From: Marsupella aquatica
Lineage: Eukaryota; Plantae; Marchantiophyta
Assembly (NCBI GenBank): GCA_973895155.1
Contig: OZ316895.1
Span: 21,712,558 to 21,776,557 of the forward strand
DNA: 64,000 bases
Direction: 5' to 3'
Position numbers and translations under genes: made by a program. A model generated the notes under the pieces. The model made no database searches and was not told the origin of the DNA. It was given only the letters and a program-made list of their open reading frames with translations. Below are positions 30,140 through 63,889 of this stretch, one piece after another. Each line of letters starts with the position of its first letter. The first letter of the stretch is position 1.

Positions 30140-31840
30140 TTACCTCCACAGCTCCCACTGGGCAGTACCGTTTATCTTTTCCATACCCGCATTGCTTAAG
30201 CAATCCATCAAAAGACTGCTTGTTCCTGAGAACTTTCTAATTTTTTCTAACTCGTCTACCTTCAGGTATAACCCCACTCCCTGCCGAATCGTTTGAACCG
30301 ATTTAACAGTTTTGATTAGAAGTTTTGTACTCTCAATTTCAGCGTTATCCTCGAGCTTAGGAGCAGGCTCAATTTTCCTTGACTCCCTTGGTCTTTGAAG
30401 GAATAGAACAAGGTTCTTGAACCTGTTATCTCTCTGATTGCAAGGCTTACATGCATCAAAATGGTCACTTGTGGCAGCTGTGAAGAAGCAATCAATGTCG
30501 TAGCGGACTGATGCTTCTACTGCAACATATGTATGCCAATATCCATACCACACATCCTGCCCACGATAAAAAGCATCAGATTTCATCCAATCAATTGACT
30601 AGCACCTATAGCAGAAAGCTTGATGTATGATAAAGCTCAAATAAACCCATCACGCGAGGGCGATTTGGACTGTAATCCTGGAGGACCGTTAGCCCGAGGG
30701 GGTTAGATACTGGCCGGAGCCCCTGAAGTGGGGATGGCCTACAAAGCTGAATTCACGACTCTGTTCTTCTGAAGAAATTTTCACTTTTGAAATTCACAAC
30801 CCCCGGACCAAGCTGGCTAGCGGATTATGAGCTTCAACTGCGGGGTTACGATTGAAACACCGTGCAATCTTGAAAGGAAGAAACAATTGAAGGGGTTAAG
30901 AAATCATACGCACCACTTTGGTTTGGCAAGCTGCAAAAATTGCTTCATTCGTGCAACCACTGTATTTCCTCCATTCCCTGAACCATTCATTTCGGCGGCT
31001 AGCATCTTCGCTCAGAGTTTTTACAATTTTCAACAAGGGACTCTCTTCCTTGGGTAACCACGCTGTGTAGTCAGCTAACTTTGAGCCCAAAAATGGTGTA
31101 TTATAAAAGAAAACACCTTGTATGTTCTCCACGAAAGAACTCAATCTCTGAAAATCTGTGCGTTCTGGAGAGACAAAGCCAGAAAATACCCCTCGCTTCC
31201 AAAGGCTTAGTTTTACTTCCATGGCATAGACAAGCTCTTTGATGACTAGCCCTCCCAAACCATGTCCAACTAGGAAGATGGGACAATCTGTTTCGTATAT
31301 GTTGACAATGTCTTGTCTCAAGTTCTCTGCAATCAAGTATATATCCATATGACCAGCAGTTCTTGTCTTCCATATGGCACCTTGGTAATAAGCACTTGAG
31401 ATTCTGGACTCGGGGAACTCTATTGAAAGCCACTCTTTTGGCCAGTAAACAGCAGGTTCACTATTCGACATCCAAGTTTCCAGATAAGGCTTCCCATTCT
31501 TGCTCAAGTCAATATCATGAAAAAAAATTACTTCTGATTTTGGAGCACGTTTGGGTTTGTGAGCCGCATAAATGGAATCATTGAGCTGCATCCAAGCCAT
31601 ATATATGATCAACCGGATGACGTCATGAGCAGCTCTTAACATGGGCTTGGCAAATGTTCAACAGCAAACAAACTTGAGGAACAAAGCGGAATACAAAAAA
31701 TTCGTTATGTGAAACACAATTCATACCAAATAAAGAGGAAACACTCTGCCACGTTGCCTGCCTGCCAAAACAAACCATGAACAACGTACCCAGGTGCCCA
31801 ACTCCGAGATAGAATCCTTGGAAGTGGATGCCGATGCCAT
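30140..31840 (-). CDS. Gene D: stand-alone alpha/beta-hydrolase-fold protein (SERAC1/HNL N-terminal type) with the nucleophile Ser replaced by Gly. Exons 31840-31790, 31585-30914, 30556-30140
   Basis: MASASTSKDSISELGTW|LNDSIY...VIFFHD...TW...WPKEWL..EFPESRISSAYY...PIFLVGHGLGGLVIKEL...GVFFYNTPFLGS...|...EASVRYD...DHFDACKP. Introns are GT-AG, phase 0. Confidence 0.8.
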
Positions 31841-33119
31841 TCGGCCTCAGGGAAATTGAGAGGAACTTAAAGGTCTTTTTCCAGAAAGGGGAACAGAATG
31901 ATCTTTCCCGAGCTAGCCCTCCAAGGGAAAGCCCGACAATGTGTTGGGTAACAGACTGCCTTACACCCGCGGCGCTTTACCGTAACGAGTCATAAGCTAA
32001 AAACTAGCCCTACGATTACAGTAGAACGAAAGTGCAGTCGAGAAGACGTCGAGATCAGACACACAGAAGGGAACACTTCACAAGGGAAACACTTCACAAC
32101 AATGGCTGCATCGAACAGCGGGCTGGTGTCCATACAGTATAGAGTAGTTTTTTTCTCTTTTCCTTCCTGGTCTTGAAACCTAAAGTCGAAGGGTGATCTC
32201 CTGTGGTGTTGCCCTGGTGGCCACCTGTTTGTATGCTGTCTTTGTGAATGGAATTCAAAAAGATCTTTCAAGGCAAAAATAAATAAAGTCGAAGAGTGAT
32301 CATCTTTACAGAACAGTAGTCTTGCTCAGTTTGGTCCTCGCGCGATCCATTCTTCAGAAAAGTCAAGACGGTAATCGCTTTCACTCCCGAACCGTACCAG
32401 TGTGGTTATATTTTATTGAATTGAATGGAGTTCTCGTCACTAGACCCACACGCAAGGAGCATTTATTCTGCCTGAACTGTTGTAGATTCTTACCTTTACG
32501 TCAGTGAGTTGCAGCAACAAGCGAGGTCTTATTATTATATTCGTGTAGCTTCTAGTGGGGCCGGGACAGCTTCTAGACTTGGAACTCTTGCAGCTCTAGG
32601 GGAGTTTCGGGGCAAGCTCCGCAACTCTTGGGAGTTGGCCAAATTTCGACAGCGCACAGGACGATTTGAAACTCCAATCTGAGCAATTTGTAGGGGACGC
32701 TTATCCCGGCCTCTTCGGGAGCTCTCTCTCTTAAGTGTTCTCACTCAATTCTTCTCAGGAAACCTTGACGGACTTTCTCCGCCGAGTTCTCCGCCTGGTT
32801 TTCATTCCTCGTGATCGTTCATCTCGATTAGGTGTGAAGGATCTCATGAGGCAGTCATGTAGGTAACTTCGATGGCCGGACGGATGTGTTCGAGCTGAGA
32901 ACTTTCCTCTTCTGAATTGCTGCTAATACATCGTGTCTCAACTCTGGGCCTTGTCCTCGATGCTGGTCTGTAATTCCAAAGGATCGCACGGGTGTGATGA
33001 AGTGCGAGAAAACTAGGCAGGAATTGCCGGTCCGGCTGACATCGACACACCATTAAAGTTTTAGTTCTCTATTGCCGTTGTCATTCTCTGCTGGTGGTCC
33101 TTTTTCCCTTCTTGGAGAC

Positions 33120-36100
33120 ATGGACCGGGTATGGGGAAGTAGTCTGGAAAGTCCAATACCAGCGGGTGAGGCAACTTCATCATCGCCTGAGCGTTTACTT
33201 CCTCATGGACTACAGAAGGTACGTAGGAACTAGTTGCCCCCTGCGCTTGCTTGCTGAAGACGAAGGCAGTTCAACCAAACACTTGCGTCTCTTTGTTGGT
33301 TCATGTCTTCGAGCTCTTCTCATTTCAGTCGACGCGTTTATCGTGCGCTTTAATCTTGAGTGTTGACGTTATATGGTCGGGCTTTTCAATTACTGGTCTC
33401 CAGTCTATCAGACGAATCGAGTTCTGACAAGCACATCTTGCTGCAGATCAATGATTCGGTCTATCTAGTTGACGGGCTCCTAGAAAATCCCTCAGTTGAA
33501 ATTGTTTTTTTCCACGGTCTCAGCCTGGATGGATCCAAGGAAACATATTGGACGACATGGCTCTCATCAGATGGCTCCGAGTTGTGGCTCCGATGGATCT
33601 TGAAAGAGTTCCCATGTGCTCGCATACTTATGGTTTCGTACGATCCTTCAATTAAGAGAAGAGTTGATTGGGGCTCTCGGAACATTTGCGAAATTGGTAA
33701 AAAACTGGTGCGAGATCTAACAAATGCTCGAGTTGGGAACCGTGGTTGCCCGGTGGTGTTTGTAGGGCATTCCGTTGGATGTGTGGTGATGAAAGAACTT
33801 TGTATTAGACACGAATGCACGGGTGAATATATAAGGGAATATTCGAGGGAATATCAAATATTCGAGGGTTTTCCCGCATTTAATGGTGTCGATATTCGAG
33901 GGAATATCGAATATAATGGTGTCGATAATGGTGTCGATATTCGAGGGAATATTTATCTGAAGAAATATTCGAGTGAATATTCGAGTGTGTTGAGGAAATA
34001 TTACCTCGACCAATATTTGAGTGAATTTCATTGGAGCGAATGGGAATCGATACACTCAAGTGCAAAGTCATTGTCCAATGAATATTCTAGTGAGTTGTTA
34101 TTCAATTTGAAAGGACTCTTCTACTACTCATGTCCCAACCTTGGGTTAGAGTTGCCACACAGTAGTGCCTCAACGTTTCCAGAGGGACGACTGGTTCAAG
34201 ACGTTACTATCAGTAATGAGCAACTAGAACGGACGAATAGGGTTTTTCGTGAGGTACGCAAGGATTATGGATGGATAACCGGTGGAATCGGAGAACGCCT
34301 TCCAACAACTTTGGTAAGTGTTCTAGCTGCAACTTCTGCTACAATCACTTTATCAAAATCAAAACCTCGTCGTGAGTCTTAGCAGTTCAATGTGAAGATG
34401 AAGTTGAGCTTGTGAAAATGTGTCTTTCACTCAATGAAAGTGTCAAGTGCTAGGCCAACTCAATTTCCCAGCCCATAGAAACGAGCGACGAATTCTGTGA
34501 AGGCAAAGTTCAGTTTATTTATTTTCTGTTGGTGCAATATATTCTCTACAGGGACAATGGAAAAAGGTGATTGTTTCAGAAGCGTCAGCAAGGTATGATT
34601 CGGACGAGTTTACACGGTCAATGCTGACCATTTTGATGTGTGTCGACCAGAGTCTCCTTCGAATTCCACATATCTTCTCCTGTCACGCTTCATTGCTCGT
34701 GCATTGGAAAAGGTATCATTGTCTGAGCGCTTTTTATGTGCTTAAGCTATAAACTGCAAAACTATTAGAACCTTGGCAGATCTTATATACTTAGCATGTT
34801 TTGAGAAGGTTTTACTAATATAGTTCTGAACACAATTTAAATCATACTCTAGATCGATTGATGGCACTGTAACAGAACGAAGTCATTGTAAGAGGACGCT
34901 TTGCCAGCTACTGTTGTTACACATTTGCTTGTTTTTGTTGAAATGTTGTGGATAGTAAATACTTTCTGGTCTTTCATGATAGCATGAAGAACAAGAGTAG
35001 CCTTAGTTGCAACTGAAAATTGCAGCCTAGCTCTTCATTTCATCAACATTCGAGTAGATTTTATGGCATTCATATATTTTGGAGTATATAACTTCATGCT
35101 CAATTCAAATGGCTGGATAACGTGATTCATATTCCCCATGGAATTGTTGGTCTTGACAGGCGGCGGGTCAAGACAGTCCATCGCCAGCTTCGTACATGAC
35201 GATGGACGCGGACATAGCTCAGCGACCGGATATAAAATTGAAAAAGAATCGGTTCAACTTGTCTGACGAACTTTCCAAGGCTGAAGCATCCAAGGACGAG
35301 CCAACCAAGCTTGCCGGGGAGTTGAGCATGCGGCAGCCTCTCCAGAATGCGCGCTTACCCCTGGATATGAACTTAAAACAGCAGGCAATGAAAAGTTTGC
35401 TTGGTAGCTCTGCTGCAGAAACTTTAGGTACTGGGGGTCATGGGACCGGGAGTAACGAGAACAAAAGCGATGACGGGAGCAAGGAAGATGAAACTTCAGG
35501 TACTGGGGGCCATGAGGTCGGCAGCAGTGAGAAGAATAGCGATGACGGGAGCAATGACGATGAGATACTGTTACTCCACCAACTGCCCGAGGAAGGCGAC
35601 GTTGCTTCCCAGGGGACTCATGCCGTTAAACTGTCAGCAGCCCACCCTCCCCCGCCATCAGGTTACAAAAATGCCAAGAGCATTAAACGAAGGAAGCTGT
35701 CGATGGCAACAGGCGAGTCCATCTTTGGGACAAGCATAGAATCCGTCTATCAAGAAAAGAGTACTGAAAATTTTGAAAGAAAATCTGTGATGGGCTTGAC
35801 ATTGAGGCCAGGGGAAGATCTAGGGATAAAGCAACTTTCCGTGGAAACAAACAATTTAAGGATAGAGGAGACAGCGGACAAATGCATGACTAGAGATGGG
35901 ACTCCAGAGTCTAGGTTGCTAATGTGTTTTATAGGGCTCGTTAAGGACAGAGACGAAGAAGGATACTTCGTGAGTTCAGAGTGGCTCCTCAGCCTACAAG
36001 AGAATGAAAGAGAATCTTTAATGTCAGTCCTTTGGGGAGCTGGATATGCAGAGGCTTGTCAAACAACTACCACAACATTGTTTGCTAGAATTGAGAATGA

Positions 36101-38326
36101 TGTGGAAGGGGGCACATCTACAGAGGCCTCAGGATCATTCATTTTAACAGGAAAGAGGGTCGATAAATATCCCGGAGAAATACAGGGTTTGAGTATGGAC
36201 AAGAAGCCAGAGATTTCAACTCAAGAAATTGCCAATAACTTCGGTTCAGACAACCCAAGAGAATCAAGTATGCCATCCTCCATCCACTTACTAATTGTAT
36301 TAGATCTTAGATCACAGTACGACCACAAGTGCTCATCATTAAGCTGAATCCACATGACATAGAGCGACGTGGTTTTGTTACGAGGACTACTAGAGTTTAA
36401 AATTGATTCTTTGAAGTTTAGAAACTTGTATGAACGGAGTGCTGGATGACAATAGCCCGTGGCTGGTGGCATTGCCAGCGTCCCAGAGGTCCTAGAAATA
36501 TGTGCAATTCTGTCTTGAGCTTTGCATTAGTGCAGCTATCAATTCCCTCCTCAAGAGACATGAGGGAAACGGGCAGGGAAACTGCATTAATATACGTATG
36601 TCACACGATTAAATTAGCAAAAAAATACTTTAGGCTCGGAGGTAAAAATGAAAATCAAGAATGGAATCTTCTCGTCTCTTATACTCGGTAATAATCACAT
36701 CTCCGAATAAACATGGATAATAGATTATTCTCTCCATTCATGGCTGTGGGAATACCTGAGGAGAAACATATCAAAGTTGAAATCTCAGGCGACTGGAGTG
36801 AGTGCACAATAATTTTCGCTTCATCTTCATTCTACGGGGCCAGGTTCGAAAATCCATTGCACACCCTAATCACTTTTGTCCCTGTTCAGGTAGTGCAATT
36901 GACGACGGAAGGCGCAGGCACGTAGCAACATGGGAGTCTTTCCAAGCGGCAATAAACAGCAAACGCCAGGAGAGGTTTTGTGTAAGCACGCAGTGGATCT
37001 CCCATCTAAATGGGCATGAGAAGGAGGCATTGGTTCAATCTTTAACGGAAGCTAAGTACGTGCAGATTTCTCAGTCAAGCGAAACAACTTGGTATGTGAG
37101 GTTCCGAGGTGAGGTGCGGAACCTTCCTCGTCCTGCAGGCGATGATGATGCATCAAGATCGTCCAATAAAAATAACAGTACCAGTGGTAATGTCGAAAAG
37201 CTTGGAATATGGAACTTATTTGGATGGCTGAGACCTAAGAGGAACATGAATGATGAGGATAATCTAAGGGGTTCGTCTGATGCGGCAAACAGAGTGGAAA
37301 CAAGTAAGTTGGACGTCCCACGAAGTTGGTATTGGCAAGTGATTGCGATGTACGTTGCTATAATAGTGGTCATATGGCTGTCTTATGACCTTGAACACTA
37401 TGGCATTTATCGTTTGCAGGCCAAATCCAAGATGGCAAAAGTTCTGTGTGTCATCCTCAACTTTTGACAGTGACGTGCTCATCGTCTTCTGAACCGTCAA
37501 CAGTACTGCCATTGAACGGGAATGTGAGTGAAGATTTCAGTAGATTTCGATTTGGTGACTCAACTGTCACAATCCCTCGAATGGGTCCCTCCCAGAATAT
37601 TTCAACCTCTATGGAGAAATCCTTCTCAATAACGAAGATTGAGTTCGTTGATGGACGAAGTAGGGAGGCCTCCATGGATCTGAAGGCAATTGCAACAACC
37701 TCACTGAGTTGCTGCGTTAAAATGGACCGTCACCTCCAGAAGGTGCATTTTAAATTTTCTAAAATATCTGGAGAAGTCAGGAACGTAGAACCAGAAGAAG
37801 AGTGGTGCAATGCTATCGTTGTGAGCTCTGTATACACAAGTGTGTTCGGTTGTAGTAAGAGGAGAACCAATCCATATAACATGGAACCAATCGATCTTTT
37901 TCTCGACGATGAATACTGTCGTAGTGGAGGACGGAGAGTGTCTGAAGGGGATCCCTCTACAGGTGATCTTGTGTGGATCGAGAATGCAGAAAGAACTCCT
38001 GACAGCTGTGAGCCTGGATCAACGACCATAGTGTTGCAAAGAGAGATTGAAAGAAGACGCCTAGAGGACTCACGGAGACCCGTTCAGGGAGCTTATCCTC
38101 TTCTCTTCCAAAACGTATTCCTGTGAAATTCGAGGGGGAAGTTAGTTTAGCCCATTACCGTCACACAGATTCATTCTTACAATTTCGTGTTAGATATCAA
38201 CTGCAAGTGTCTTACTTCAAACCCTCTCGAGCCATTTTAGAAGAAGGCCCAGTTTGGTATGCCATCAACACCACTAAACTCATCGATTTTGGCCCCTGTT
38301 TGACATTTACAACCGAGAGTTTTTAG
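33120..38326 (+). CDS. Gene A: alpha/beta-hydrolase fused to an unknown C-terminal module (two ~65-aa repeats + ~290-aa beta-rich domain). Exons 33120-33218, 33447-34313, 34552-34712, 35160-36267, 36890-37303, 37420-38326. Two 1-bp frameshifts (~34610, ~38112), so a pseudogene or assembly error
   Basis: Hydrolase motifs IVFFHGL, WL..EFP.ARIL.VSY, VFVGHSVG, LFYYSCP and EASARYD...DHFDVCRP. All five GT-AG introns join in phase once the two single-base deletions are corrected. Exons 4-6 are collinear with gene B. Confidence 0.75.
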
Positions 38327-38994
38327 GGTTTAGGTTGCACCACTCTTCTTCTGGTGCAACCTAAACCCCTCAACCCGATTACTGTGGGTGATGAATTAGT
38401 GTTACTGGGGAATTAATGTAAGTCTACAAAACTAGTTGAGGATACTTATTTCTGTTTGCAATGAAGAAATGTTTTGGAATCAATTGTGGTAAAAAGACGA
38501 AGTCTGCTTTCCGACATTGATTTCTCTGGAAAATTGCAGGTCATTTGCCATCCTACCATTACTTTCCATGATGAGAAAGGTATGGATGAATTAACAATTG
38601 TACTTTTATGTGGTACTGTCTTCGTCCTCTTGTGATTGTCCTCCTGCCATCGAGCGGGTGGATCTACAGTACCTACCCCTCTCTTGAACGAAAGTGAGAA
38701 GCAAAGTCAGTTGGGCAACCTCGATGGAATGTCGACTGAAATTCCAGTGCTATTTTCATGAGTTTCTCCAATGTAAAAATAATAGTACCAGTGGTAATGT
38801 TTCCTACTTGTTTTACCATTTCTGTAAAGTTCCTAACAACCCTAAGAAGATATATATGATCAATTGCTCGTTACCATATCTGGCTATGACCATGTAAAGA
38901 CCTCCCATATGCCTCTTGGCATACAAGGTAGACGGAATGTCAACTAGATAACAGTTCATAGCAGAACCACACACTCTTAACATATACATTTGAC

Positions 38995-39153
38995 GAGAGA
39001 TATACTGGATGGACTCCCAAAATGAAAAGAGTCACTTGATGGACCCCATTAGTGATCCAGACCATTGATAAACCTTAAATCAACGTACCCAAAATCTCAT
39101 GGGGTCCATCAACTAACACCTTTCATTTTGGGGGTCCATCACGTATATCTCTC
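38995..39153. mobile_element. MITE (~160 bp) with ~58-bp terminal inverted repeats
   Basis: Left end gagagatatactggatggactcccaaaatgaaaagagtcacttgatggacccca; reverse complement of right end gagagatatacgtgatggacccccaaaatgaaaggtgttagttgatggacccca. The GAGAGAT terminus resembles the MULE at 48956. No clear TSD. Confidence 0.75.
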
Positions 39154-39927
39154 CAAGAGCTTTTCCAGCAGTATAGGGGTCAATGACCTCTACACCTAAA
39201 ATGTAGCCCATCATTTGGAGGCCTAGAAACTAGAAAAGCCCTAATATTGAATTTGGTCACCCATTCCCCCCCCCCCCCTCCTTTCTTTGACTTCCATCCT
39301 CCAAAATGATGTGTTATCATGCCTAGGTTCAAAATCTCAAGCATATTCATGGTCTTGTGACATGTGATAGAATCTTTGAGGTAGATGTTAATAGGTCAGG
39401 ATAGAGGTCTCTCTCCTGGCTGCCATTTGTATCAGACATGGAGGTGAGGGGCTGTGAAAATGGAGGTTGACTGCCACTTATTTAGGGATAGGGGCCACCC
39501 TTGGGAAGCCATCCCGACAAAATCGACCACTATATGCTCTTTTTAGAAGTTACAGGTGCATTTGACCCCCTCAGCTCAAGACGCTCTACATGAAGTGGGT
39601 CAAGCCAAGGGGCTCCTCCAACTGAACCATGAGTAGTGTGGAGCACTCACAGGAGGATCAAGACATGAGAATGTGCTTGTCTTTGGCCAAGTCAGAGCAT
39701 TGAAGTCCCCTAACAAGATTTACTTTGAATTGAAGGCTAGCGTGGCCCCAAGGTGCAGAGAACAGCTAAGACCGTCGATCTTATCGATGACCCTTGGTGA
39801 AGCACCATCTTCCACTAAAGTAGAAAGCAAGGAAAAGAATTTTTGTCTATTTATTTCAAGCAATGGAGCTAGCGAATAAATGACGGTGGGGGTGGGGATC
39901 CATCAAGAAAGTAATCCTATCCCTTTG

Positions 39928-41410: not shown

Positions 41411-44400
41411 ATGGGTAATTGCCTCTACAAGGACATCGGAGCAGCAATCGGCAGAGACGCTTCCCAAGCCCTGATTCTGGTCGTCGGCAACGATGCAGAA
41501 TGCAAGTCTCGTGTCGCATGGGACCTCGCAGAGGCTCGTGGTGCGACAGAAATGCACCTCAACAAGGCCGGGGTTCTGTTATTCGCGAGAAAACATTCCC
41601 CCGCAGAGCCTGTAGTGATGGACACTGCTCCTTTGAAGACCGTCCCGGGTTTGTCCCGGTTGGACACTGCGAGGGTCTGGATCTCACAGAATTCTCTGAG
41701 ACAGCTTTCGGGACAGGTTGTGTTTGTTGTGTGCGTCATATCGTCCACCGATGCCAAAGATGAGATCTACAGGGACCCAAATTTCAGGCACAACCAATTC
41801 AGCTGGTTGCACGTGTTGGCGTATGTTTTTGAAAAGAACAGAAAGGAGATCCTGATCCTGGTGAAGTCCGAGGACAGCACTGACAACCCGTTTAAGCAGA
41901 GATTCATGCAGGTCCTGAAAAGGGATGGATTCGGATGGCACGAGAACATCATCTTCGTCAAGTCTAAGAGAACAGATCTCAATAATCCTATGGTCAAAAG
42001 GAAAGTGCATCCTAGTGTTGATAGAGACAATGTCGATCACGAGAAATCAATTGAAAAAGGGATCGAGTCGATGTCCCCTTTCCGGTTGCCAATGGTGGCA
42101 CTGGATGGTGCCGACCAGTTTGGGCCATGGGGCCCTGAGAACGTGATCCTTTTCGGGATGTCAGGCAGTGGAAAGTCCACCCTGGCCAAGATGCTCACGA
42201 CAGGGAGGCTGGACGGAGTCGATTCTCTCTCCACAAAATTTTCCACGAGCTCAGGTCTGAGGGGAGAAACGAAGAAGGTCATTGTAGGGCAGGGGAGAGG
42301 TTGGCGAGTTGTCGACACTCCGGGGGTCGGAGAGTCGAACGAGGATGCAAAGAGCGGCGTATCAACAGACAGAGCAGGAAAATTGATCAGAGATTACGTG
42401 ACGTTGGTCCAAGGAGTTTTCAGCCACTTCATCTTCGTCATGAAGATGGGTCGGGTGAGCGAGACCGATACGGCATTGTGGAGAATCTTCAACAAAATGT
42501 TCCACGAAGATGGGGTCAGAAACCACAAGACTGTTGTGATTACCGGTGCGGATCAAAGCTGGGTGGACTGCAACATCAGTCATTTGAAGAATTGTTTTGA
42601 AGGCTGTCACAGCTTTTTGCCTGCAGAATTCCCTTCAATGGAGCCGGATGTGGATTGTGACGAGGAAGCGGAGAGAGAGCTCCAAGAAGAGCTTCAGAAC
42701 ACGAGACTGCAGTCCTTGAAGGCGCTCGAGGAAGATCTCGCCAGCCTCTGTCGACCGGATGCGTCTTGCAGATTGGGGATGTGGTCGCTTGGTACTCAGC
42801 GAAGCTTGATAGCTCGTGGTGAGGAGGAATCCAGCTCAATAGGAACTCATTATTGCCAGAATTCTGCTTTCGGATGGTTAGCCGTGAAACCACAGCCATC
42901 AGACTACGAAACATTCAGGACTATCAACAGAATCAATTCTTTCATTTCCCCAACCTTTCTGCCTGGGCAGAAATTAGACCTCAAGTCTTTTACTTCCCCA
43001 AGCTTTTTGCCTGGGCGCAAATTAGACCTTTCACAGAGTGAAGGTATCAAAAAGATAAAGGGGACAGCTGACAAATACATGATAAGGGACGGGACTCCAG
43101 AGACTAAGCTGCTAACGTGTTTTATAGGGCTCATTAAGGACAGAGACGATGACGGATACTTCGTGAGTTCAGAGTGGCTTCTCAGCCTACAAGACAACCA
43201 AAGAGAATCTTTAATGTCAGTCCTTCAAGGAGCTGGATATGCAGAGGCTTGTCAAACAAGAACCACTACATTGTTTGCTAGAATTGGGAGTGATGGGGAA
43301 GGGCCCACATCCACAGAGGCACCTGGATCATTCATTTCAACAGGGAAAAAGGTTGATAATCTTCCTAGAGATTGGCAGGGTTTCAATATGGACAAAAATG
43401 CAGAAATTTCAAACCAAGAAATTGCCAACGCCTCCGATGCAGACAACCAGCGAGAATCAAGTAAGTCGTCCTCCATCTACTTGCGAATTGGATTATACCT
43501 TAGATCGCAATCATATTATAACATCAGCATAACTTCATCAAGTTCAATTGATCCATGAAAGGACATGGTCCAGAGGGACGTGGTTTTGTTTGTGAGGATT
43601 ACTGAACTTTAACATTGATTCTTTGCAGTTTAGAAATTTGCATGTTCTGAATCCAAATTGAAGCTTAGAAATCTTCATGGTTTGAATCTGAATCGAGTGC
43701 TGGATGGAAACGCCTTGAGGTTTGTGGCATTGCCAGTATCCCAGAAATATGCGCAATACCATCTTTAACTCAGCAGTCTAGCTATAACGTCTCAGAAATA
43801 GACAAGAGAGAAATTGGACGAATGATGCGAAAATATCGTATTAACAGAAAAGTTCTTAGGCTTAAAAGTACAAATGAAAAATCAGGAGTAGAAACGTCTA
43901 GTCTTTTATTCTCTCTCATTAATAATCACATATCTAAACATGGATGATAGATTATTTCCCCCCTTCATAGGATGGCTATCATGGGATGCTTTGGGTCAAA
44001 TATAATTAACAAAACGGCTGTAGAGAAACGGCCAGAATCTCTGTGATCCAACATAAGGAGTTGGTTGGGGCCCCTGTTCAGGTAGTGCAACTGACGACAG
44101 AAGGCGAAGGCAAGTAGCAACGTGGGAGTCTTTCCAAGCGGCAATAAAGAGCAAATGCCATCAGAGGTTTTGTGTAAGTACGCAGTGGCTCTACGATCTA
44201 AACCAGCATGAGAAGGAGGCATTGGTCCAATCTTTAAGTGAAGCTAAGTACGTGCAGATTTCCCAGACAAGAAACACAACTTGGTACGTAAGGTTCCAAG
44301 TGGGAAACCTTCCTGGTTCTGCAGGCGATGGTGATTCATCAAGCTCGTCCAATAAAAATAATAGTCCCAGTGGTAATGTCAAAAATCTTGGAAGATGGAA

Positions 44401-45502
44401 CTCATTTGGATGGCTGAGACCTAAGAAGAGCGTGAATGGTGAGGATAATGCAAAGGGTTCGTCTGGTGCGGAAAACGGAGTGGAAACAAGTAAGTGGCAC
44501 ATCCCACAAAATTGTTAGTGGCACAGTGATTGTAATGTACGTAGCTACAAGAGTGGTGATACAGCGTTCTAATGACCTTGAACACTATGGCATCTGTCGT
44601 TTGCAGGCAAAATCCAAGATGGCAAAATTTCTGTGTGTCATCCTCAACGTTTGACAGTGACGTGTTCATCGTCTTCGGAACGTTCAACTGTACCCCAATT
44701 AAACGGGGATTTGAGTGAATATTTCAGTAGAAATCGATTTGGTGACTCGATTGTCACAATCCCTCGAATTGGTCCGTCCCACAATATTTCAACCTCTATG
44801 GAGAAACCGTTCCCAATAACGAAGATTGAGTTCGTTGATGGCAGAAGTAGGGAGGCGTCCATGGATCTGAAGGCCATTGCAACAACCTCAATGAGTTGTT
44901 GCGTTAAATTGGACAGTCATCTGGTGCATGTTAAATTTTCTAAAATATCTGGAGAAGCCAAGAATGTACAACCAGAAGAAGAGTGGTGCAATGCTGTTGT
45001 TGTGAGCGCTGTATACACGACTGTGTTCGGCTGTAGCAAGAGGACAACCGATACAGGTTCTAGCATAGAACAAATTGATCTTTCTCTGGACGATGAATAC
45101 TGTCGTAGTGGAGGACGGATAGTGTCTGAAGGGGATCCCTCTACAGGTGATCTTGTGTGGATGGAGCATTCAGAGAGAACTCCTGACCGATGTGAGCCTG
45201 GATCAACGACCTTAGTGTTGCGAAGAGAGGTTGAAAGAAGACGCCTAGAGGACTCAAAGAAAGTTCTTCAGGGAGCTTATCCTCTTCACTTTCAAAGGCC
45301 TAGTCCTGTGATATTCAATGGTGAAGCTAATTTAACCCATCAGGGTCACCCAGATTCATATTTACAATTTATAATTAGATACCAACTCCAAGTTTCATAC
45401 TTCGAACCTTCTAGAGCCATTTTAGAAGAAGGACTAGTTTGGTATGCCATCAACAAAACTAAGCTCATCGATTTTGGCTGCTCTTTGACAATTACAACCT
45501 AG
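41411..45502 (+). CDS. Gene B: N-acylated pseudoGTPase + AIG1/GIMAP(IAN)-type GTPase fused to the same C-terminal module as gene A. Exons 41411-43460, 44082-44489, 44607-45502; reading frame intact
   Basis: MGNC start, G1 GMSGSGKST, G2 ETK, G3 VVDTPG, AIG1-like HFIFVMKMGRVSETD...MF...TVVITGAD, then an acidic coiled coil. Donors GTAAGT at 43461 and 44490 and acceptors at 44081 and 44606 sit at the same positions and phase (1) as in gene A. Confidence 0.85.
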
Positions 45503-53186: not shown

Positions 53187-55592
53187 TGCACGACAAGCAA
53201 CCCAGAATTGGCTGTCAAAATGGTCTCTATAGCTTTAGCCATTGAACAGTCTTCCTGAACAGCTTACACAGAGCAAGCGATGCAATGTGTAAGCACTGCA
53301 GCTTCAACCACAAATTAACTCCTCCCCCCAGAACGCAACATGAAGCACCGACACTGCTCCCAAGTGATCCGCAGCGCGCTGACTTCTCTCTCCAGCACGC
53401 ACCTAGTTCACTTCTCTCCCCGGCCAGCACGCAGCTCAATCACTTCTTTCCCCAACATGCAGCTCAATCGAGAGCTCAATCAGCTTCAGGCGATCAGCCC
53501 TTTCACTTTTCCAGTCGAAGCTCTCCTCATAGCATCGACCACATCACTCTGTACGATCCTCACCCTCTCGCAGCCCAGCCCGGAGCGCAGCGTAGCTTCA
53601 ATCAATCACTCTCAACGATCAGTAATCCTCTAGCTCCTCTCGATCAGTGCAGCGCCGGGTGCAGCGCAGCTTTGACTCTCGACAATCCACCACAATGTAT
53701 CAACATTGGGTTCTCAATCAATGGCAATCGACGTTTTGCTTAGGAAGTCCAGGGCCTCGCCTCCCGTGAATGATGCAGTGGGGTCTTGCCTCCCGTGAGT
53801 GTTCCAACGGGTACACAATACACAGGCCCTGCCCCCCCCCCAACATAAAATTTTCCTGTTCTCACTTAGGTATGGTGTCAGAAATCTGCAGGGCCCGACA
53901 ACTTCTTGCTAAACGGCTCCAACCTACGTTTGAGGTCCCACCAAGTCATTTTGGACTTTTTGGGACTTGTTAAGTCGGCAGCTTTCAAGTGAGACCCCAC
54001 CAAGCAAATCTCTCTCATTTTTTGCTTTCCGTTGGATAGGCCGCAAACCCCCACCCAAGCCCTGCGTAGGGCCTTGGGCCAAGCTGGCGGGAGAAGCCCT
54101 GACTCATGCCCCTACACTCCCCCTGATGCATCAGAGTCTGGCCCTGCCCAGGCTTGCATGCTGCCTGCCCTGATCCCTGACGCTTATCCTTCACTAGCCT
54201 GGCGCATGCCCCGCCTCAGAGGCACCTGCCCCCAACCCTGGCTCACACTTTGTACCTGGTGGGTATTTGAGACTATTTAATGAAATGGGTATGTATAAGA
54301 CATATTACATGTGCTAGGGTATGTAGTATACACATAAAGTGTTTTTTTGGCACGGAGCATCCGCAAGGAGAATAGGTTGAAGCATATATTAATCAAAGCA
54401 ACAGATTGGTGAGATTGAGGCATAATTTGGCATGGAGCGAATAGAGGGAAATGATCCACATGAGAAAGTTGTTTGGCTATTTTCTCTTGAGAAGGGATGG
54501 ATGGTTATCTTTTCTTACCAAAAAAATCTCAATTTTAATGGTGTTGGAGGGAAGAAAAATGGGGAGGGATGGAGGGAGGGAGGGAGAGCAGGAGAAAAGA
54601 AGGAAGAGCATGGGGGAATAAGGAGGCAAGAAAAGGTTAAATATATGTTCTCCCTCCATATAGCATGAAGCAACCCAACCTGGATCCCACAATGCCTCAG
54701 ATGTTCTTACCAGTCTTACAGCATCCGCCCCCCGGGCCCTTGCCTTCCCACAGACATCACTTTTCCACACCAACTACATTGACTAACCAACAACCACGCA
54801 CCTAAACAATGCTTTTGCAAACATAATATGATTACACCCATGACATGGTTGGAATGACAACACTTCCGCAACAATCACACCGCCCTAATGACAATCCAGT
54901 TCAAACAACAACTAACTTTCAGAACCACAACAGTGACAACCCGACCACAAGCACAACACAGTCATAATTATAATACGGCTCAAAATTTAACTTTGCCTTT
55001 GCAAGATTTATCTTCCTCAATGACTTTCTCCATGACATCTTTTGCACAATGGTTTGTTTACTTAATGACTATCTTAATTTTTTGGATCGATATTATTTGC
55101 ACAATGACATATTTGACACATTGACATCTTTTCCGCATTGACATTTTTTAGACAACTACATCTTCTATGCAACTTGTGGGTATACACTATAAAATGCTAC
55201 CCTGCCTAAAAGCTTCCGTGGAGTCCATTAAAAAAAAGTGAAAACAGAGGGAACAAATAGTACCCTAAAATATATTGCTATGATTTTTGATACCGTTAGA
55301 TTGAGTGAAATAAAGGGGATAGAAAATGGAAAGGGATACCCATGGATATACTTGCTCTCACAACATAACATTGGTATGATCTAAGAATTTTTTTTTTGGC
55401 TTTTTGCTAGGGAGAAGGGAAAATTTCAATTTTTTTCCCTCCCTGTCTTCTACTTATCTTTCATATATTGGAGGGGGGGAGGGAGGGAGCCGAAGAGCCA
55501 GGGAGGGAGGCCGGAAGGAGAGAAAGGGAGGGCACAAGAGAGGAGCAAAGAAGAAAAAAGGAGGAAAAAAAGGGAAATAATATTCTCTCCCT

Positions 55593-55634: not shown

Positions 55635-56431
55635 TTGGGCTACCACACTTGACACTATACACCCCATCCACTGCCCCTGTTTTGCAGCCCACCCTCCCAC
55701 GCCCTTGCACTCCCCAAGAACATTGCTTTCACAGCAACTCCTTGGGACATGCTGTACCTTGACATTTTTGCCTTGCCTTGACATTTTTTTTCACCTTGAC
55801 ATATTTTTTCTTCTCAACATATAATCTTTTTTTCACCTTGACATCTTTTCCTCACCTCAACATTGCTTTCTCACTTCAAATCTTTTTCTCACCTCAACAT
55901 CTTTTCTGTCCTCAACATTCTCTCTTTTCTTGACATTTTTCTTCACCTCAACATCGATTTCTCACCTTGACATCTTTTTTCACCTTGATGTCTTTTCTCA
56001 CACATCGTTTTCCTCACCTCAGCATCTTTTTCTCACCTAAGCATTTTTTGTGCAATGCACAGGCATTGGGCTAGTACTAGACATAACCTGGCACATGACC
56101 ACAACTAAAGTGCTTTGTTCACAAGAGGACTCGACATTTTTTCTCTCTCCCTACTCAGTCGTGCTAACTCTTTCACCCTCCCTAGTGCTCGTGCTTTATG
56201 TTTATATACCATCCCAGCTCCTTATTTTTCTTGTATATTAGCTAGAATCTGGTAGTTATATTTCTGAACTACCTTTCCTGGGGATACAAGTTGGAGAGGG
56301 ACATGGACTCTCCCTCCAAATTGATCTCCTTCCATAGTCCTACTTATTTTACTATTTGTGTAAAGGCCGTATCAGCAGTAACAATAACATGATCAATGGT
56401 GAGGGACCATATTGGGTAGAACCATTAAAGT

Positions 56432-58549: not shown

Positions 58550-59830
58550 ATTCATTTTATGGCTCCCCATGCCTTGCAAAGAGAGATGAAGCTAGAATAT
58601 AATTTGCTAGGAGACAAGCCACATATAAATCATTTTATGGCCCCCAATGCCTTGGAAAGAGAATTGTAACTAGAATATGATTTGCTAGCAGACAAGTTTA
58701 GTACCACTCGACCTAAAAATCATTTTATTGCCCCCAATGCCTTGGAATGAGAATCGTAACTAGAATATAATCTGCTAGGAGACAAGTTTAGTACCACTCC
58801 ATCTAAAAATCATTTATGGTCTTTAGAGGTTTCATTTTTACAAAATGACACATCATGTGCAATCATTTTATTTGTTTTAAGGGAAAATTTAATAATTTTC
58901 TTAGAAGAACAATTATAGGGTCTTTTAAATACAATTTTGAGACTTATAAATATATTAGGGTCTTCTTAATCAAATTTTTAAAATATTCTAATTTTATATG
59001 GAATTTTTTTTAAAAAAATTCTTACATATTAGGAGGTCTAAGACCTAAACTTGCCATGATGGGGAGGCCCCCATATAGTGAGAGCCCCAAGAATGCCCCC
59101 CCAATGCCTTGCAAAGAGAATTGTAGCTAAACTTTACTTTTCTAGGAGACAACTTTAGTATCACTCCACCTAAAAATCATTTAATGGCCCGCATGCCTTG
59201 CAAACAGAATTGTAGCTAAAGTATAATTTTCTAGGAGACAACGTTAGTACCACTCCACCTAAAAATCATTTTATGGCCCCCATGGCCCCATGCCTTGCAA
59301 AGAGAATTGTAGCTAAAGTATAATTTGCTAGGAGACAGTTTTTTATAGTAATTTTAAAAAGGTGAAATCTGTGAAACCCCACAAAAAGGGAAGAGTCAGT
59401 CACAATAGTCCCAAGACCTATCAGTTACTAGTCAAGGGAGTTATCACAAAGTCATGCCTTTCTGGACACTAAGAGACAACTTTAGTACCACTCCACCTAA
59501 AAATCATTTTATGGCCCCCATGCCTTGCAAAGAGAATTGTAGCTAAAGTATAATTTGCTAGGAGACGATTTTTTTATAGTAATTTTAAAAAGGGGAAATA
59601 TGTGAAACCCCACAAAAAGGGAAGAGTCAGTCACAATAGTCCCAAGACCTATTAGTCTCTAGCCAAGTGAGTTACCACAAAGTCATGCCTTTCTGGACAC
59701 TAAGAGACAACTTTAGTACCACTCCACCTTAAAATCATTTTATGGCCCCCAATGCCTTGCAAAGAGAATTGTAGCTAGAATGTATTTGCTAGGAGACAAG
59801 TTTAGTACCACTCCACCTAAAAATCACATA
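58550..59830. repeat. Satellite-like array of ~90-bp units with a ~240-bp higher-order duplication
   Basis: atggcccccaatgccttgcaaagagaattgtagctagaatataatttgctaggagacaagtttagtaccactccacctaaaaatcatttt occurs ~8-9 times; 59290-59520 is duplicated at 59520-59750. Confidence 0.85.
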
Positions 59831-60822
59831 GTTCACTGGCTAGGGCTTTTCTTGTTATGACAAGAAAAAAATCTGATGAGTAACATGTGAGTACATTTAA
59901 ATACAAATCTGATGAGGGACATGTGGGTACATTTTTTAATGTAAACGACTCCAAAATGGGAATGGACCAAGAGACCTCCAAGGGAGCCTGTCTACCATGT
60001 GCTCCACATAAGCAAAATTAGTTTCTCACTCCATTATAGGATGGGCAACAATTTAGATAGAAACGCTACCCTAAGTAAGGAGTAATAGTAATCATCTGTA
60101 GGTCAATCCTACTATTGTACAACCTTAGCTTCAAGAGAGGCCGAGACAGCACTCTAGAAACCCTGTCACTAATCACACATCAAAATATGATAATATAGGT
60201 TGTGCAGTCATTCATTTAAAGAAAATAAAGTAATCAAACATCAAAATGTGGTAATATACGTTACACACTTTTTGATTTAAAGAGAATAATGTGATAATAT
60301 AGGATGTGTGCACTCATTGACTTAAAGAGAATAAGGTGATAATATAGGCTGTGCACTCATTGATATAAAAAAATTTACCAGATTTATCATGCTATAAAGG
60401 AATGTCTTCGACATATAGATGTGGAGTTACCTGGACCCCTCTAGAAGGGTCCTGGCCCAGGCACGAGAATTCGCTAGGGGGCCAGACCCATACCGTTAGC
60501 GACCATTTATATTTGAGATTTCTGTTGCCAAGATTGCTTTTTCTGTACCGTACTTGGAAAGCAATGTATTCGATTGATTGGCCCTCGAGAAATTCCAGGG
60601 GTTGAAACTACACTCTTAGTTACTGCACACCGTTCGATATGATTATTCGAGGACTTTTGACAAAGCTTGAATGTAGAGAGGCCAAGTCTGTTCTCTGCAC
60701 GTGCAAATCCATAGTCTTGGTTAAAAAGAAACTTCCAGGACATTTCCAGGGGCTTGACTTTGGTTCCACACCCCTTTGGTGGTTGTGATGGGCCGTGCTA
60801 GTGAGCCGAGCTCCGCTGATGA

Positions 60823-60851: not shown

Positions 60852-62317
60852 AAAGATGGAGACTCGCAAATCTTCAAAAGCACTGCTGCAATGTTGCAGT
60901 CTGTTGGCTTTGGAGAGTCTTGGTTGATGACGTCTGTCATGTTGAATACAGAAAACCTTGTGGGCGAATGCTCCATCTTTCCAAGCAGGTTCCTCAATTC
61001 TCTAACACCCTTCCAATCATGAGAACTATCCCAACCGCCAAATTGTGAAGCGATTTCTGGCTCTGTACTTAGCAGCTCGTACTTCTCGAGACGCACGGAT
61101 TGGCAGTCTCTGAATTGGAGTTGCATCTGTGAAACTCACAGGTCGGCAGGGAAAAGTATATTCAAGGGGTTGAGTTCCAGTTTCGTCGCCGCTCTGGAAA
61201 CAGTCCTGCTAATTTGCTGCCTTTCTCTCAGAATTAAATATATATCGATGTGTTCAGAGTTGATTTCAATCTACATTCGTGACAGATTCCAGGATTTGTG
61301 AGCGACTTCGACCTTCATTCGTGGGGAAGTGGAACTAGACTTCTTGTTTCCGTCCACTAGCTCTACTCCTCCCGCAACGATCGACCAATGAAGGTTTTTT
61401 CCAAACACACTCTACAATTGCTTCTTCCTTGTGAGCCTCTTGCGATATCGTTCTGCGCTTTTGTAGCAAGTCGGAAAATTGTATTTCGGGTACAGGACTA
61501 ATCGCGAGTTTGAATAGAAGCGAGGCGATAAACATTCTTATGCGTAGTTGAATTGCAGATTTCGTTTGTGGTTCTAGTCACAGTAGATGAGCGGTGTACT
61601 AGAATGGCTATGAAGAAGGACGATGCAAAAATTAAGCCGCCGATACTCTGCACAATTCTTCTGCATTCCTTAGGTTCCAATTCGTGCTTTTTGGTTGAAT
61701 GTGTTAGTTCTGTGTTTTGAGTGACGGCATATAATGTTTATCCAGTTGACCCTCGTGGAGAAGATGAGCTTCCACATCGCTTCTGTAATTGAGCAAAGTG
61801 GGCTCACGTTTTGAGTGAGAGACGCTACGGCCGGGGATCGTCCATCTGCAGGCCACTTCGGAAGTGATCCTCCACGGCCACCTAGCACGTTGGACTTGAG
61901 GAGGCAATTGGGATCGAGGGAGCTCCTCGCCGGGTACAGACACGAAAGAAACTCTCCATGGCGGTATCCACATGAAAGGCATCATCAATCAAGAACGATA
62001 GGTCGGATTAGAATGGGATCGACTCATCAACCAGATATTTGCAGCTTGTGCCTCCATAGCAACCTCGAAAGTAAGTGTGAATGGGAGGTAGGCTGCCGAC
62101 TGTAGTAATCAAAGCCCAGCTGATGGATTTCCCCTTCACCACGGGAGGATCGAAGGAGCCGGTCTTCTGGATTCACGCCCAACTTTCTGAGATGATGACT
62201 CGAGGAGTAGCACCAGTATTTCCGGATAGGTAGAGCTCACCACGTCTAGATTTCCGGGCTCATGATCTGAATAGTTCATTCGCCGGAAACGTCTATCGAG
62301 TTTGGCGGAAGCGATTG

Positions 62318-63889
62318 ATGGGTAATTGCCTCTGCACCTATAATCGACCAGCAGCAATCGGCACAGACACTTCCCAAGCCCTGATCCTGGTCGTGGGCAA
62401 CGATGCAGAATACAAGTCTCGTGTCGCACAGGACCTCGCAGAGGCTCGTGGCGCGACAGAAAAGCACGTCAACAAGGCCGGGGTTCGGTGTTTCGCCAGA
62501 AACGCTTCCCCCGCAGAACCTGTGGTGATGGAGACTGCTCCCTTGAAGACTGTCCCGGGTTTGTCCCGGGTGGACACTGCGAGAGTCTGGATCTCACAGA
62601 ATTCCCTGAGACAGCTTTCGGGACAGGTTGTGTTTGTGGTTTGCGTCATAGGGTCGACCGATGCCGATGAAATCTCCAGGGAGCCGAGTTTCACGAAAAA
62701 CCAATTCTGCTGGTTGCATGCGTTGGCGCATGTTTTTGAAAAGAACAAAAATGAGATCCTGATCATGGTTAAGTCGGAGGACAGCACTGACGATGCGTTC
62801 AAGCAGAAATTCCTGCAGGTCCTGAAAAGGGATGGATTCCGATGCGAAGAAAACATCATCTTCGTCAAGTCGAAGAAAGCATATCTCAATTCTCCTATCG
62901 TCAAAACGTTACTGCAATCTCATGTTGATGAGAGAATAATTGAACACAGGATCGAGGCAATGCCCCCTTTCCGTTTGCCAATGGTGGCACGGGATGGTAC
63001 CGGCTGGTTTGGGCCATGGGGTCCTGAGAACGTGATGCTTTTCGGGATTTCAGGCAGTGGAAAGTCCACACTGGCCAAGATGCTCACGACAGGGAGGCTA
63101 GACGGAGTCGATTCTCTCTCCACCAAATTTTCCACGAGCTCAGGTATGAGGGGAGAAACGAAGAAGGTCATTGTAGGGCAAGGGAGAGGGTGGTGTGTTG
63201 TCGACACTCCGGGGCTCGGAGAGTCGAACGAGGATGCAAAGAGCGGCGTATCAACAGACAGAGCGGGCAAATTGATCAAAGAGTACGTGATGTTGGCCCA
63301 AGGAGTTTACAGCCACTTCATCTTCGTCATTAAGAAGGAAAGGGTGAGCGAGTCCGATACGGCATTGTGGAGAATCTTCAACACAATGTTCCACGCAGAG
63401 GGGGTTGAAAACCACATGACTGTTGTGGTTTCCGGTGCAGATCAAATATGGGTTGACGAAAACATCAGTCATTTGAAGAAGTGTTTCGAAGGCTGTCACA
63501 GTTTTTTGCCTGCAGAATTCCCTTCAATGGAGCCGGATGTGCATTGTGACGAGGAAGCGGAGAGAGAGCTCCAAGAAGAGCTTCAGAACACGAGACTGCA
63601 GTCCTTGAAGGCGCTCGAGGAAGATCTCGCCAGCCTTTGTCGATTGGATGTGTCTTGCAGATTGGGAAAGTGGTCGCTCGGTACTCAACGGAGTTTGATA
63701 GCTCGCGATGAGGACGAATCCTTCTCGTACGGGGCTCATATGCGCCAAAATGCTGTCTTCGGACCGTCAGCCGGAAAACCACAGCCATCTGACTACGAAA
63801 CAGCCAGGACCATCATCAGATTCAAGTCCTTAACGACCCCAACCTTTCTCCCTGGGGAGAAATTAGTGGTTTCTCCGTGTAGAAAATAG
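62318..63889 (+). CDS. Gene C: intronless N-acylated pseudoGTPase + AIG1/GIMAP-type GTPase, paralog of gene B's N-terminal half, without the C-terminal module
   Basis: MGNCLC start, GISGSGKST, DTPG, HFIFV...TVVVSGAD. Collinear with 41411-42975 with long identical stretches; stop after PTFLPGEKLVVSPCRK. Confidence 0.88.
   Translation: MGNCLCTYNRPAAIGTDTSQALILVVGNDAEYKSRVAQDLAEARGATEKHVNKAGVRCFARNASPAEPVVMETAPLKTVPGLSRVDTARVWISQNSLRQLSGQVVFVVCVIGSTDADEISREPSFTKNQFCWLHALAHVFEKNKNEILIMVKSEDSTDDAFKQKFLQVLKRDGFRCEENIIFVKSKKAYLNSPIVKTLLQSHVDERIIEHRIEAMPPFRLPMVARDGTGWFGPWGPENVMLFGISGSGKSTLAKMLTTGRLDGVDSLSTKFSTSSGMRGETKKVIVGQGRGWCVVDTPGLGESNEDAKSGVSTDRAGKLIKEYVMLAQGVYSHFIFVIKKERVSESDTALWRIFNTMFHAEGVENHMTVVVSGADQIWVDENISHLKKCFEGCHSFLPAEFPSMEPDVHCDEEAERELQEELQNTRLQSLKALEEDLASLCRLDVSCRLGKWSLGTQRSLIARDEDESFSYGAHMRQNAVFGPSAGKPQPSDYETARTIIRFKSLTTPTFLPGEKLVVSPCRK

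What the first reader, a model, noticed from the sequence alone, without database searches (positions are those of the whole stretch)
30140..63889. Mix-and-match cluster: one unknown C-terminal module attached to either an alpha/beta-hydrolase or an AIG1-type GTPase, with stand-alone versions of both heads nearby
Seen: four architectures within 34 kb. D = hydrolase only, A = hydrolase + module, B = GTPase + module, C = GTPase only. A (from ~35855) and B (from ~43050) share the module with two introns at identical position and phase, plus the 3' flank. Known: this hydrolase type is the N-terminal domain of liverwort hydrolase-NLRs (HNL), and AIG1/IAN/GIMAP GTPases are immunity-associated. Inference: this may be an undescribed NLR-independent immune or stress-signalling family that swaps N-terminal heads onto a common module. 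No NB-ARC or LRR is present.
Basis: partly seen in the sequence, partly recalled or inferred. Interest (0 to 1): 0.88.

Follow-up and report, generated by a model that had tools for sequence, protein, structure and literature searches.

The report
Liverwort NLR tail swapped onto GTPase
A liverwort gene cluster joins one undescribed protein tail, which in a related liverwort also ends predicted NLR immune receptors and is predicted to fold loosely like the body of bacterial alpha-hemolysin toxins, to either an immunity-type GTPase (intact gene) or an NLR-type hydrolase (frameshifted here), so it likely shows immune-receptor parts being reshuffled onto new signalling heads.

Summary
The four architectures are in the sequence. 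B (GTPase + module) is an intact 1117-aa three-exon frame, and Calypogeia fissa has the same fusion (P0001) beside stand-alone GTPases that end where C ends. A (hydrolase + module) has two frameshifts, also present in matching DNA runs, so it is broken in this genotype and its fusion rests on inferred splicing. No RNA was available. The module is two 60-aa alpha/beta repeats plus a 290-aa beta-sandwich with no Pfam family. Of 14 real homologues, 13 are from C. fissa, and 4 carry LRRs in front of it (1 with a full NB-ARC). It is therefore a post-LRR NLR tail, not NLR-independent. The predicted sandwich ranks alpha-hemolysin/leukocidin structures first (Z 8.6-8.8, rmsd about 4.5 A), which is borderline, and the membrane-spanning stem appears absent. 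Best reading: a C-JID-like sensor or regulatory tail moved between NB-LRR, hydrolase and IAN-type GTPase heads in a birth-and-death cluster (0.5). Closest precedent: Arabidopsis TIR/Nictaba and AIG1/Nictaba. New variant of a known kind; interest 0.62.

The parts
30140..31600 (-). Gene D: stand-alone HNL-type alpha/beta-hydrolase, inferred exons 31600-30914 and 30556-30140, about 367 aa; nucleophile motif reads G-H-G
33205..34712 (+). Gene A hydrolase exons (33205-33218, 33404-34313, 34552-34712); G-H-S motif intact; low-complexity insert of about 90 aa in exon 2; frameshift near 34608, before the His motif
   Evidence: frameshift present in X1 and X2, one extra base there in X3 and X4
35160..36267 (+). 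Gene A exon 4: low-complexity linker, then module repeat 1 (35898-36095); in-frame ATGs from 35196 allow a separate module gene
36890..37303 (+). Gene A exon 5: module repeat 2
37420..38326 (+). Gene A last exon: beta-sandwich domain, frameshifted near 38113 with a premature stop at 38124-38126
   Evidence: X2 contig matches without gaps
35858..38317 (+). Copy of the shared module block in A; its 5' edge is sharp and lies mid-exon
41411..43460 (+). Gene B exon 1: N-terminus M-G-N-C (predicted acylation site), about 230-aa domain with a possibly degenerate P-loop, AIG1-like GTPase, 42-bp tandem duplication at 42940-43029, module repeat 1 (43091-43288)
44082..44489 (+). Gene B exon 2: module repeat 2
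44607..45502 (+). Gene B exon 3: 297-aa beta-sandwich domain, intact here; a 1-bp deletion at 44978 in runs X3 and X4
43051..45502 (+). Copy of the shared module block in B
62318..63889 (+). Gene C: single-exon stand-alone AIG1-like GTPase, 523 aa, 79% identical to B's head; 5' flanks 60450-60628 and 61765-61943 match B's

Best explanation
The shared module is the C-terminal tail of a subset of predicted leafy-liverwort NLR receptors, likely a ligand-sensing or regulatory unit, and in this cluster it sits behind two other heads: an IAN/AIG1-type GTPase (gene B, intact) and, by inferred splicing, an NLR-type hydrolase without NB-ARC or LRR (gene A, frameshifted in this genotype). Shown: the architectures, the shared exon structure, the homologous tail on C. 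fissa NB-ARC-LRR and hydrolase-LRR models, and a second species with the B fusion. Predicted: two small alpha/beta repeats on flexible linkers and an elongated beta-sandwich resembling the cap and rim of alpha-hemolysin without its stem. Inferred: B is anchored to a membrane by N-terminal acylation. Binding of a microbial protein or membrane ligand to the sandwich would switch the GTPase, or in an intact A would release the hydrolase, a domain class that triggers cell death on its own. DNA-level recombination within the cluster keeps exchanging heads and tails, and copies are often lost.
For: Module behind LRRs in P0008, P0012, P0016 and P0019, with a full NB-ARC in P0016. B architecture in C. 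fissa P0001, at 54% identity over exon 1 and 41% over the last exon. P0001 lies on one contig with three stand-alone GTPases and a module-only model, with near-consecutive accessions. A's hydrolase is 50-58% identical to 5 of 5 HNLs. Hydrolase plus beta domain without NB-LRR also occurs in P0018. Heads group by species, and a clade of fused heads is rejected. dN/dS is 0.45-0.72 over all 8 segments compared. G1 and G3 motifs are intact in 10 of 10 heads, and M-G-N-C is present in 8 of 10. Precedents: post-LRR beta-sandwich C-JIDs bind effectors (PMC8813719); two Marchantia NLR hydrolase domains cause HR-like responses (PMC11218826); TIR/Nictaba and AIG1/Nictaba fusions (PMC5485960).
Against: No transcript, ligand or phenotype data. 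A is broken twice here, and B's last exon is frameshifted in runs X3 and X4 of a second organism code. dN/dS near 0.5-0.7 is weak constraint. C. fissa architectures are automatic gene models, and none is a complete hydrolase-NB-ARC-LRR-module. The 5 HNLs closest to A lack the module. 10 of 14 homologues have no LRR. No C-JID Pfam match. A sensor role is argued from position and analogy only.
Confidence: 0.5

Rival explanations
1. The beta domain is a pore-forming or membrane-damaging executioner of the alpha-hemolysin/leukocidin type, and the NLR, hydrolase and GTPase heads regulate its release or oligomerisation.
For: Foldseek ranks this family first (E 2e-5). In a search of 48,161 representatives the top 7 rows are all of this family (Z 7.9-8.6, rmsd 4.1-5.0 A, 174-212 aligned), and the next row has Z 6.5. 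The alignments span model residues 1-297 against most of the toxin chain. Marchantia has infection-induced aerolysin/ETX domains attributed to horizontal transfer (PMC12890914).
Against: Foldseek TM-scores are only 0.14-0.28. The tool notes that a best Z of 7-8 is typical for models without a clear match. Identity is 5-10%, and there is no sequence or profile hit. Monomer entries align no more residues than pore entries (185-191 against 177-189), so a prestem is not matched. Where the stem would lie by recalled strand order, there is a polar loop of 7-10 residues in 16 of 17 rows and an acidic 20-residue loop in the other.
Confidence: 0.12
2. These are by-products of birth and death in an NLR-derived cluster: A is a pseudogene or two separate genes, D is a catalytically dead remnant, and only the GTPases matter, with the tail dispensable.
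For: Two frameshifts in A, and B frameshifted in X3 and X4. In-frame ATGs from 35196, so the module could start by itself. Six C. fissa GTPases lack the tail. Five of 14 homologues are module-only models.
Against: The B fusion has an open frame in two species whose modules are only 41-46% identical. dN/dS is below 1 in all segments. A's hydrolase frame is open at 34608 in X3 and X4.
Confidence: 0.25
3. The module has a non-immune role, such as membrane trafficking, symbiosis or abiotic stress, as a scaffold for the GTPase, and its presence on NLRs is as an integrated decoy of that host protein.
For: Most homologues lack LRRs. The next-best folds are adaptor and Ig-like sandwiches (GAE, AP2, arrestin-like; Z 5.4-6.5). 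The nearest tree neighbour of the A and B modules is the GTPase-fused P0001 (85/84).
Against: The module was found only in one other named liverwort, unlike the conserved host proteins that decoys usually mimic (general knowledge). The named partners are mostly immune-type domains.
Confidence: 0.1
4. The module is a transposon-derived protein that inserted behind both heads.
For: Sharp mid-exon 5' boundary; a MULE element lies nearby.
Against: No transposon domain in Pfam or NCBIfam. No inverted repeats at the block ends. Two conserved introns, and in-frame fusion to host genes in two species.
Confidence: 0.03

Closest known systems
Bryophyte hydrolase-NLRs (Hyd-NLR/HNL; Chia et al. 2024, PMC11218826)
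   Same: The hydrolase heads of A and D are of this type (50-58% for A); C. fissa hydrolase-LRR and NB-ARC-LRR models carry the module.
   Different: A and D have no NB-ARC or LRR; the passages read describe no such C-terminal module and the text has no mention of GTPase or C-JID.
C-JID / post-LRR domain of angiosperm TNLs (RPP1, ROQ1; PMC8813719)
   Same: A beta-sandwich placed after the LRRs, variable in sequence, plausibly ligand binding.
   Different: About 290 aa with about 12 strands, many of them long, against 8-9 strands; preceded by two alpha/beta repeats; no Pfam C-JID hit; also fused to a GTPase and to a bare hydrolase; found in liverworts.
Arabidopsis TIR/Nictaba and AIG1/Nictaba proteins (PMC5485960)
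   Same: One C-terminal domain is carried behind either an NLR signalling domain or an AIG1 GTPase, without NB-LRR.
   Different: The head is a hydrolase rather than TIR; the tail is not Nictaba or any Pfam lectin; the GTPase has an extra N-terminal domain.
Alpha-hemolysin/leukocidin beta-pore-forming toxins
   Same: Best structural neighbours of the predicted sandwich by two programs, with whole-domain span.
   Different: 5-10% identity, rmsd 4-5 A, stem apparently absent, no signal peptide, C-terminal domain of an intracellular multidomain protein.
IAN/AIG1/GIMAP GTPases (Pfam PF04548)
   Same: AIG1 scores of 32.5 and 30.6 bits against a cut-off of 27; G1 and G3 intact; clustered paralogues.
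   Different: Match covers only about 130 of 212 profile positions; extra 230-aa N-terminal domain; M-G-N-C terminus; fused NLR tail in B.

Membership tests
AIG1/IAN/GIMAP GTPase (B, C) | PF04548 above curated cut-off | tested here: met
   32.5 and 30.6 bits against 27; marginal, and P0001 scores 21.5
AIG1/IAN/GIMAP GTPase (B, C) | G1 P-loop and G3 motifs | tested here: met
   Present in 10 of 10 heads
AIG1/IAN/GIMAP GTPase (B, C) | GTP binding and hydrolysis | not testable with these tools
   Needs an assay
Hydrolase-NLR (A, D) | N-terminal HNL-type alpha/beta-hydrolase | tested here: met
Hydrolase-NLR (A, D) | Central NB-ARC and LRRs | tested here: not met
   tblastn with NLR homologues and an NB-ARC HMM over six frames found none; best E 0.06 is the GTPase P-loop
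Hydrolase-NLR (A, D) | Serine nucleophile motif G-H-S-x-G | tested here: inconclusive
   Present in A, replaced by G-H-G in D; A's His motif is out of frame in this genotype
C-JID / post-LRR domain | Position after the LRRs of an NLR | tested here: met
   4 of 14 homologues, separated from the LRRs by linkers and repeats; not in the window's own genes
C-JID / post-LRR domain | Sequence match to the Pfam C-JID profile | tested here: not met
   No such hit for any module protein at E 0.05 or for 9 pieces at E 10
C-JID / post-LRR domain | 8-9-strand jelly-roll/Ig-like fold as in RPP1 and ROQ1 | tested here: inconclusive
   The model is a larger beta-sandwich; fold listings cannot exclude the family
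Alpha-hemolysin/leukocidin beta-PFT | Cap plus rim beta-sandwich topology | tested here: inconclusive
   Top-ranked family, Z 7.9-8.8, rmsd 3.9-5.4 A, 168-212 aligned; near the tool's background of 7-8
Alpha-hemolysin/leukocidin beta-PFT | Amphipathic stem hairpin (flanked by Y112 and H144 in alpha-hemolysin, PMC12794805) | tested here: inconclusive
   Indirectly absent; no residue-level superposition was available, and the strand mapping is recalled
Alpha-hemolysin/leukocidin beta-PFT | Sequence match to the family profile | tested here: not met
   No Pfam, NCBIfam or PDB sequence hit
Alpha-hemolysin/leukocidin beta-PFT | Ring oligomer and pore activity | not tested
Transposon protein | Transposase/RT domain or terminal repeats | tested here: not met

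The most novel reading that the evidence does not exclude
Leafy liverworts took up a bacterial alpha-hemolysin/leukocidin-family fold, kept its membrane- and receptor-binding cap and rim, lost the stem, and use it as a mobile C-terminal module on NLRs, bare NLR hydrolases and membrane-anchored IAN GTPases: a toxin scaffold domesticated as an intracellular immune sensor, with an NLR-like GTPase receptor as one output.
Probability: 0.25. Interest if true: 0.85.

Novelty: new variant of a known kind. Interest (0 to 1): 0.62.

Why it matters
It adds an undescribed post-LRR module to the NLR parts list, in a lineage whose NLRs are barely studied. It also ties IAN/AIG1 GTPases, long linked to immunity without a mechanism (general knowledge), to NLR parts through a fusion found in two species. 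That gives a direct test of whether a GTPase or a bare hydrolase can replace NB-ARC-LRR as the switch behind a sensor. If the fold match holds, it would be a plant use of the alpha-hemolysin scaffold, which my searches did not find in print.

Tried and rejected
No whole genome is held, so copy number and sequence beyond 64000 were not seen. No RNA holder was listed; the four runs laid behaved as DNA contigs. A second read-laying over gene A did not complete, so whether organism B lacks A's second frameshift is open; 29 indel rows were hidden. I suspected that C continued past the window edge or was cut by an insertion; rejected because 6 stand-alone homologues end at the same motif. I suspected that A's frameshifts were homopolymer assembly errors; rejected. 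The word-based search for longer homologues found nothing although P0001 qualifies, so it is insensitive. ESM Atlas gave no usable hit. Metagenome scans failed, as did plasmid tblastn (best E 0.4) and the viral fold library (TM at most 0.19). The repeats fold confidently (pLDDT 85-94 per repeat) but match nothing (no E below 0.001, best Z 4.7); winged-helix, SepF and R3H rows are not distinguishable. No C-JID structure is among the rows listed, which does not exclude it. The pseudo-GTPase idea for the N-terminal domain got only weak support (hhalign E 0.07 with G1 and G3 in register; P-loop family E 0.09). A GTPase-tail remnant upstream of A's junction was not found (927 of 1000 shuffles scored as well), so the direction of transfer is unresolved. 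D's tail looks by eye like the start of an NB-ARC but scored nothing. P0014 (moth) and P0017 (rhinoceros) were dropped as repeat-driven chance hits; they did not match the domain HMM, which was built without them. A homo-oligomer prediction was never queued: no verdict. Earlier-findings look-ups were empty.
Full report
Setting. The window is eukaryotic DNA with spliced genes; no whole genome is held. Nearly all named homologues are from the leafy liverwort Calypogeia fissa, at 40-66% identity depending on the domain, so the source is likely another liverwort species (inference).

Observation. Self-comparison finds the block A 35858-38317 / B 43051-45502 and the block B 41310-42977 / C 62194-63866. 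B, spliced at GT-AG sites as 41411-43460, 44082-44489 and 44607-45502, gives 3354 nt with a single terminal stop, 1117 aa. A's two module introns lie at the same positions. Exons are 84-88% and introns 79-83% identical, so the copy was made at DNA level. The 5' edge is sharp and mid-exon, and B has a 42-bp tandem duplication just before it. C is a 523-aa single exon. I first suspected truncation at the window edge, but 6 of 6 stand-alone C. fissa GTPases end at the same motif. D and A exon 2 are hydrolases of the HNL type. No NB-ARC or LRR is in the window.

A has a 1-bp deletion near 34608, where tblastn hits to four HNLs change frame, and another near 38113. Spliced as is, A stops at 35197-35199. 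Contigs from runs X1 and X2 (organism code A) match over 34608 without gaps, and X2 also over 38113, so the breaks are real in this genotype. Runs X3 and X4 (organism code B, one study) have one extra base at 34608 but lack one base at 44978 in B's last exon. Loss-of-frame alleles thus segregate in both fusion genes. No RNA run was listed, and a second read-laying did not complete. A's fusion therefore remains inferred. For it: a canonical phase-0 splice, and a C. fissa model with hydrolase plus beta domain and no NB-LRR (P0018). Against it: in-frame ATGs from 35196.

What the module is. It has two repeats of about 60 aa and a final domain of about 290 aa. A phmmer search of 1.84 billion representatives gave 16 hits; I dropped 2 as chance. 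Of the 14 left, 13 are C. fissa and 1 is a short JGI/IMG contig. Partners by Pfam: NB-ARC-LRR (P0016), hydrolase-LRR (P0012, P0019), LRR (P0008), hydrolase alone (P0018), GTPase (P0001), DEK_C (P0009). P0010 and P0013 have N-terminal parts with no family above cut-off, and five are module-only models. So 4 of 14 place the module after LRRs. P0001 reproduces B and lies on one contig with three stand-alone GTPases and a module-only model. All 5 longer relatives of A's hydrolase are hydrolase-NB-ARC-LRR proteins, but none of them has the module. All C. fissa entries are automatic gene models.

Evolution. In a tree of 10 heads, B groups with C (89/79) and P0001 with the C. fissa stand-alone GTPases (91/90). 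In a tree of 17 beta domains, A and B are sisters (100/100) with P0001 next (85/84). Forcing the two fused heads together is rejected (AU p 4e-6). Either the fusion arose twice or the head is homogenised by gene conversion; both mean continued exchange. dS is about 0.19 for both B-head/C and the B/A beta domain, and dN/dS is 0.45-0.72. The direction of transfer is unresolved.

Folds. The repeats are predicted as helix-strand-helix-helix-strand-strand (pLDDT 85-94) with no clear match. The final domain (17-row alignment; pLDDT 74, pTM 0.77) is almost all long strands with one main helix. Foldseek ranks leukocidins first (E 2e-5) but with TM 0.14-0.28. The independent wide search puts seven alpha-hemolysin-family chains on top (Z 7.9-8.6, rmsd 4.1-5.0 A, 174-212 aligned), ahead of 6.5 for the next fold. 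The second look gives Z up to 8.8. The tool's note puts background at Z 7-8, so this is a lead and not a homology. There is no sequence support. Monomer entries align no more residues than pore entries, and the loop where the stem would lie, by strand order recalled from memory, is 7-10 polar residues in 16 of 17 rows. In alpha-hemolysin the stem includes Y112 and H144 and the rim binds lipid (PMC12794805, passages). I read the domain as a stemless cap/rim-like sandwich.

Heads. G1 and G3 are intact in 10 of 10 GTPase heads, and M-G-N-C starts 8 of 10; Gly2 with a nearby Cys suggests myristoylation and palmitoylation (general knowledge). The 230-aa domain in front may be a degenerate second G domain, with weak support. 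A keeps the serine motif and D does not. Two Marchantia NLR hydrolase domains elicit HR-like responses in N. benthamiana (PMC11218826; passages and section 8).

Mechanism. Most likely (0.5) the module is a sensing or regulatory tail, like C-JIDs, which bind effectors after the LRRs of TNLs (PMC8813719, passages), and it has been moved behind a membrane-anchored GTPase switch and a bare executioner hydrolase. Arabidopsis TIR/Nictaba and AIG1/Nictaba show the same logic (PMC5485960, passages). Rivals: cluster debris with a dispensable tail (0.25), pore-forming executioner (0.12), non-immune scaffold copied as a decoy (0.10), transposon (0.03). The architectures and homologies are shown; folds are predicted; ligand sensing, acylation and an immune role are inferred.

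Novelty. No Pfam or NCBIfam family covers the module. Literature searches (listings only, except the papers cited) found no description of it, of an AIG1 fusion in liverworts, or of a leukocidin-like NLR domain. The C. fissa genome preprint has no mention of NLR, GTPase or hydrolase in its main text (10.1101/2025.04.01.646537, passages); its supplements are closed and may bear on expression. PMC12890914 (passages) reports aerolysin-type, not leukocidin-type, domains in Marchantia. The library omits most subscription papers.

Verdict. Real and undescribed at the domain level, reproduced in a second species for B and C, but NLR-linked rather than NLR-independent, with A broken here and function untested. 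New variant of a known kind; interest 0.62.

Noticed in passing
window 48956-54014: MULE transposon with long terminal inverted repeats (48956-49083 / 53887-54014, 85%), MULE and SWIM domains, and an opposite-strand ORF (52638-53234) with an RNase H1 N-terminal (Cauli_VI) domain, possibly captured.
   Followed up: partly
window about 16000-23500, minus strand: Strumpellin (WASH complex subunit) exons, Pfam PF10266.
   Followed up: partly
window 599-2953, minus strand: 2-oxoglutarate/Fe(II) dioxygenase exons.
   Followed up: partly
window 33809-34084: Low-complexity in-frame insert of about 90 aa in A's hydrolase, absent from homologues; contigs of X3 and X4 skip 276 bp here, with short anchors only.
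   Followed up: partly
window 38326-38368: Perfect 17-bp inverted repeat directly after A's last codon; one arm also resembles 37785-37810 in reverse.
   Followed up: no
window 30140-30330, minus strand: D's C-terminal tail resembles by eye the entry into an NB-ARC domain, but no HMM or tblastn score supports it.
   Followed up: partly
P0009, P0013 (C. fissa): The module follows a DEK C-terminal-like domain (at Pfam's cut-off in P0009), a chromatin-protein domain that could be an integrated decoy.
   Followed up: no
P0004 (unnamed assembly): A 39%-identical two-part GTPase lacking the C-terminal tail shared by C and the C. fissa genes; shows the head is older than the cluster.
   Followed up: partly
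window 48200-48850, 55750-56080 and 58550-59830: Arrays of degenerate tandem repeats between B and C; high-copy repeats also near 32000 and 39000-40300.
   Followed up: no
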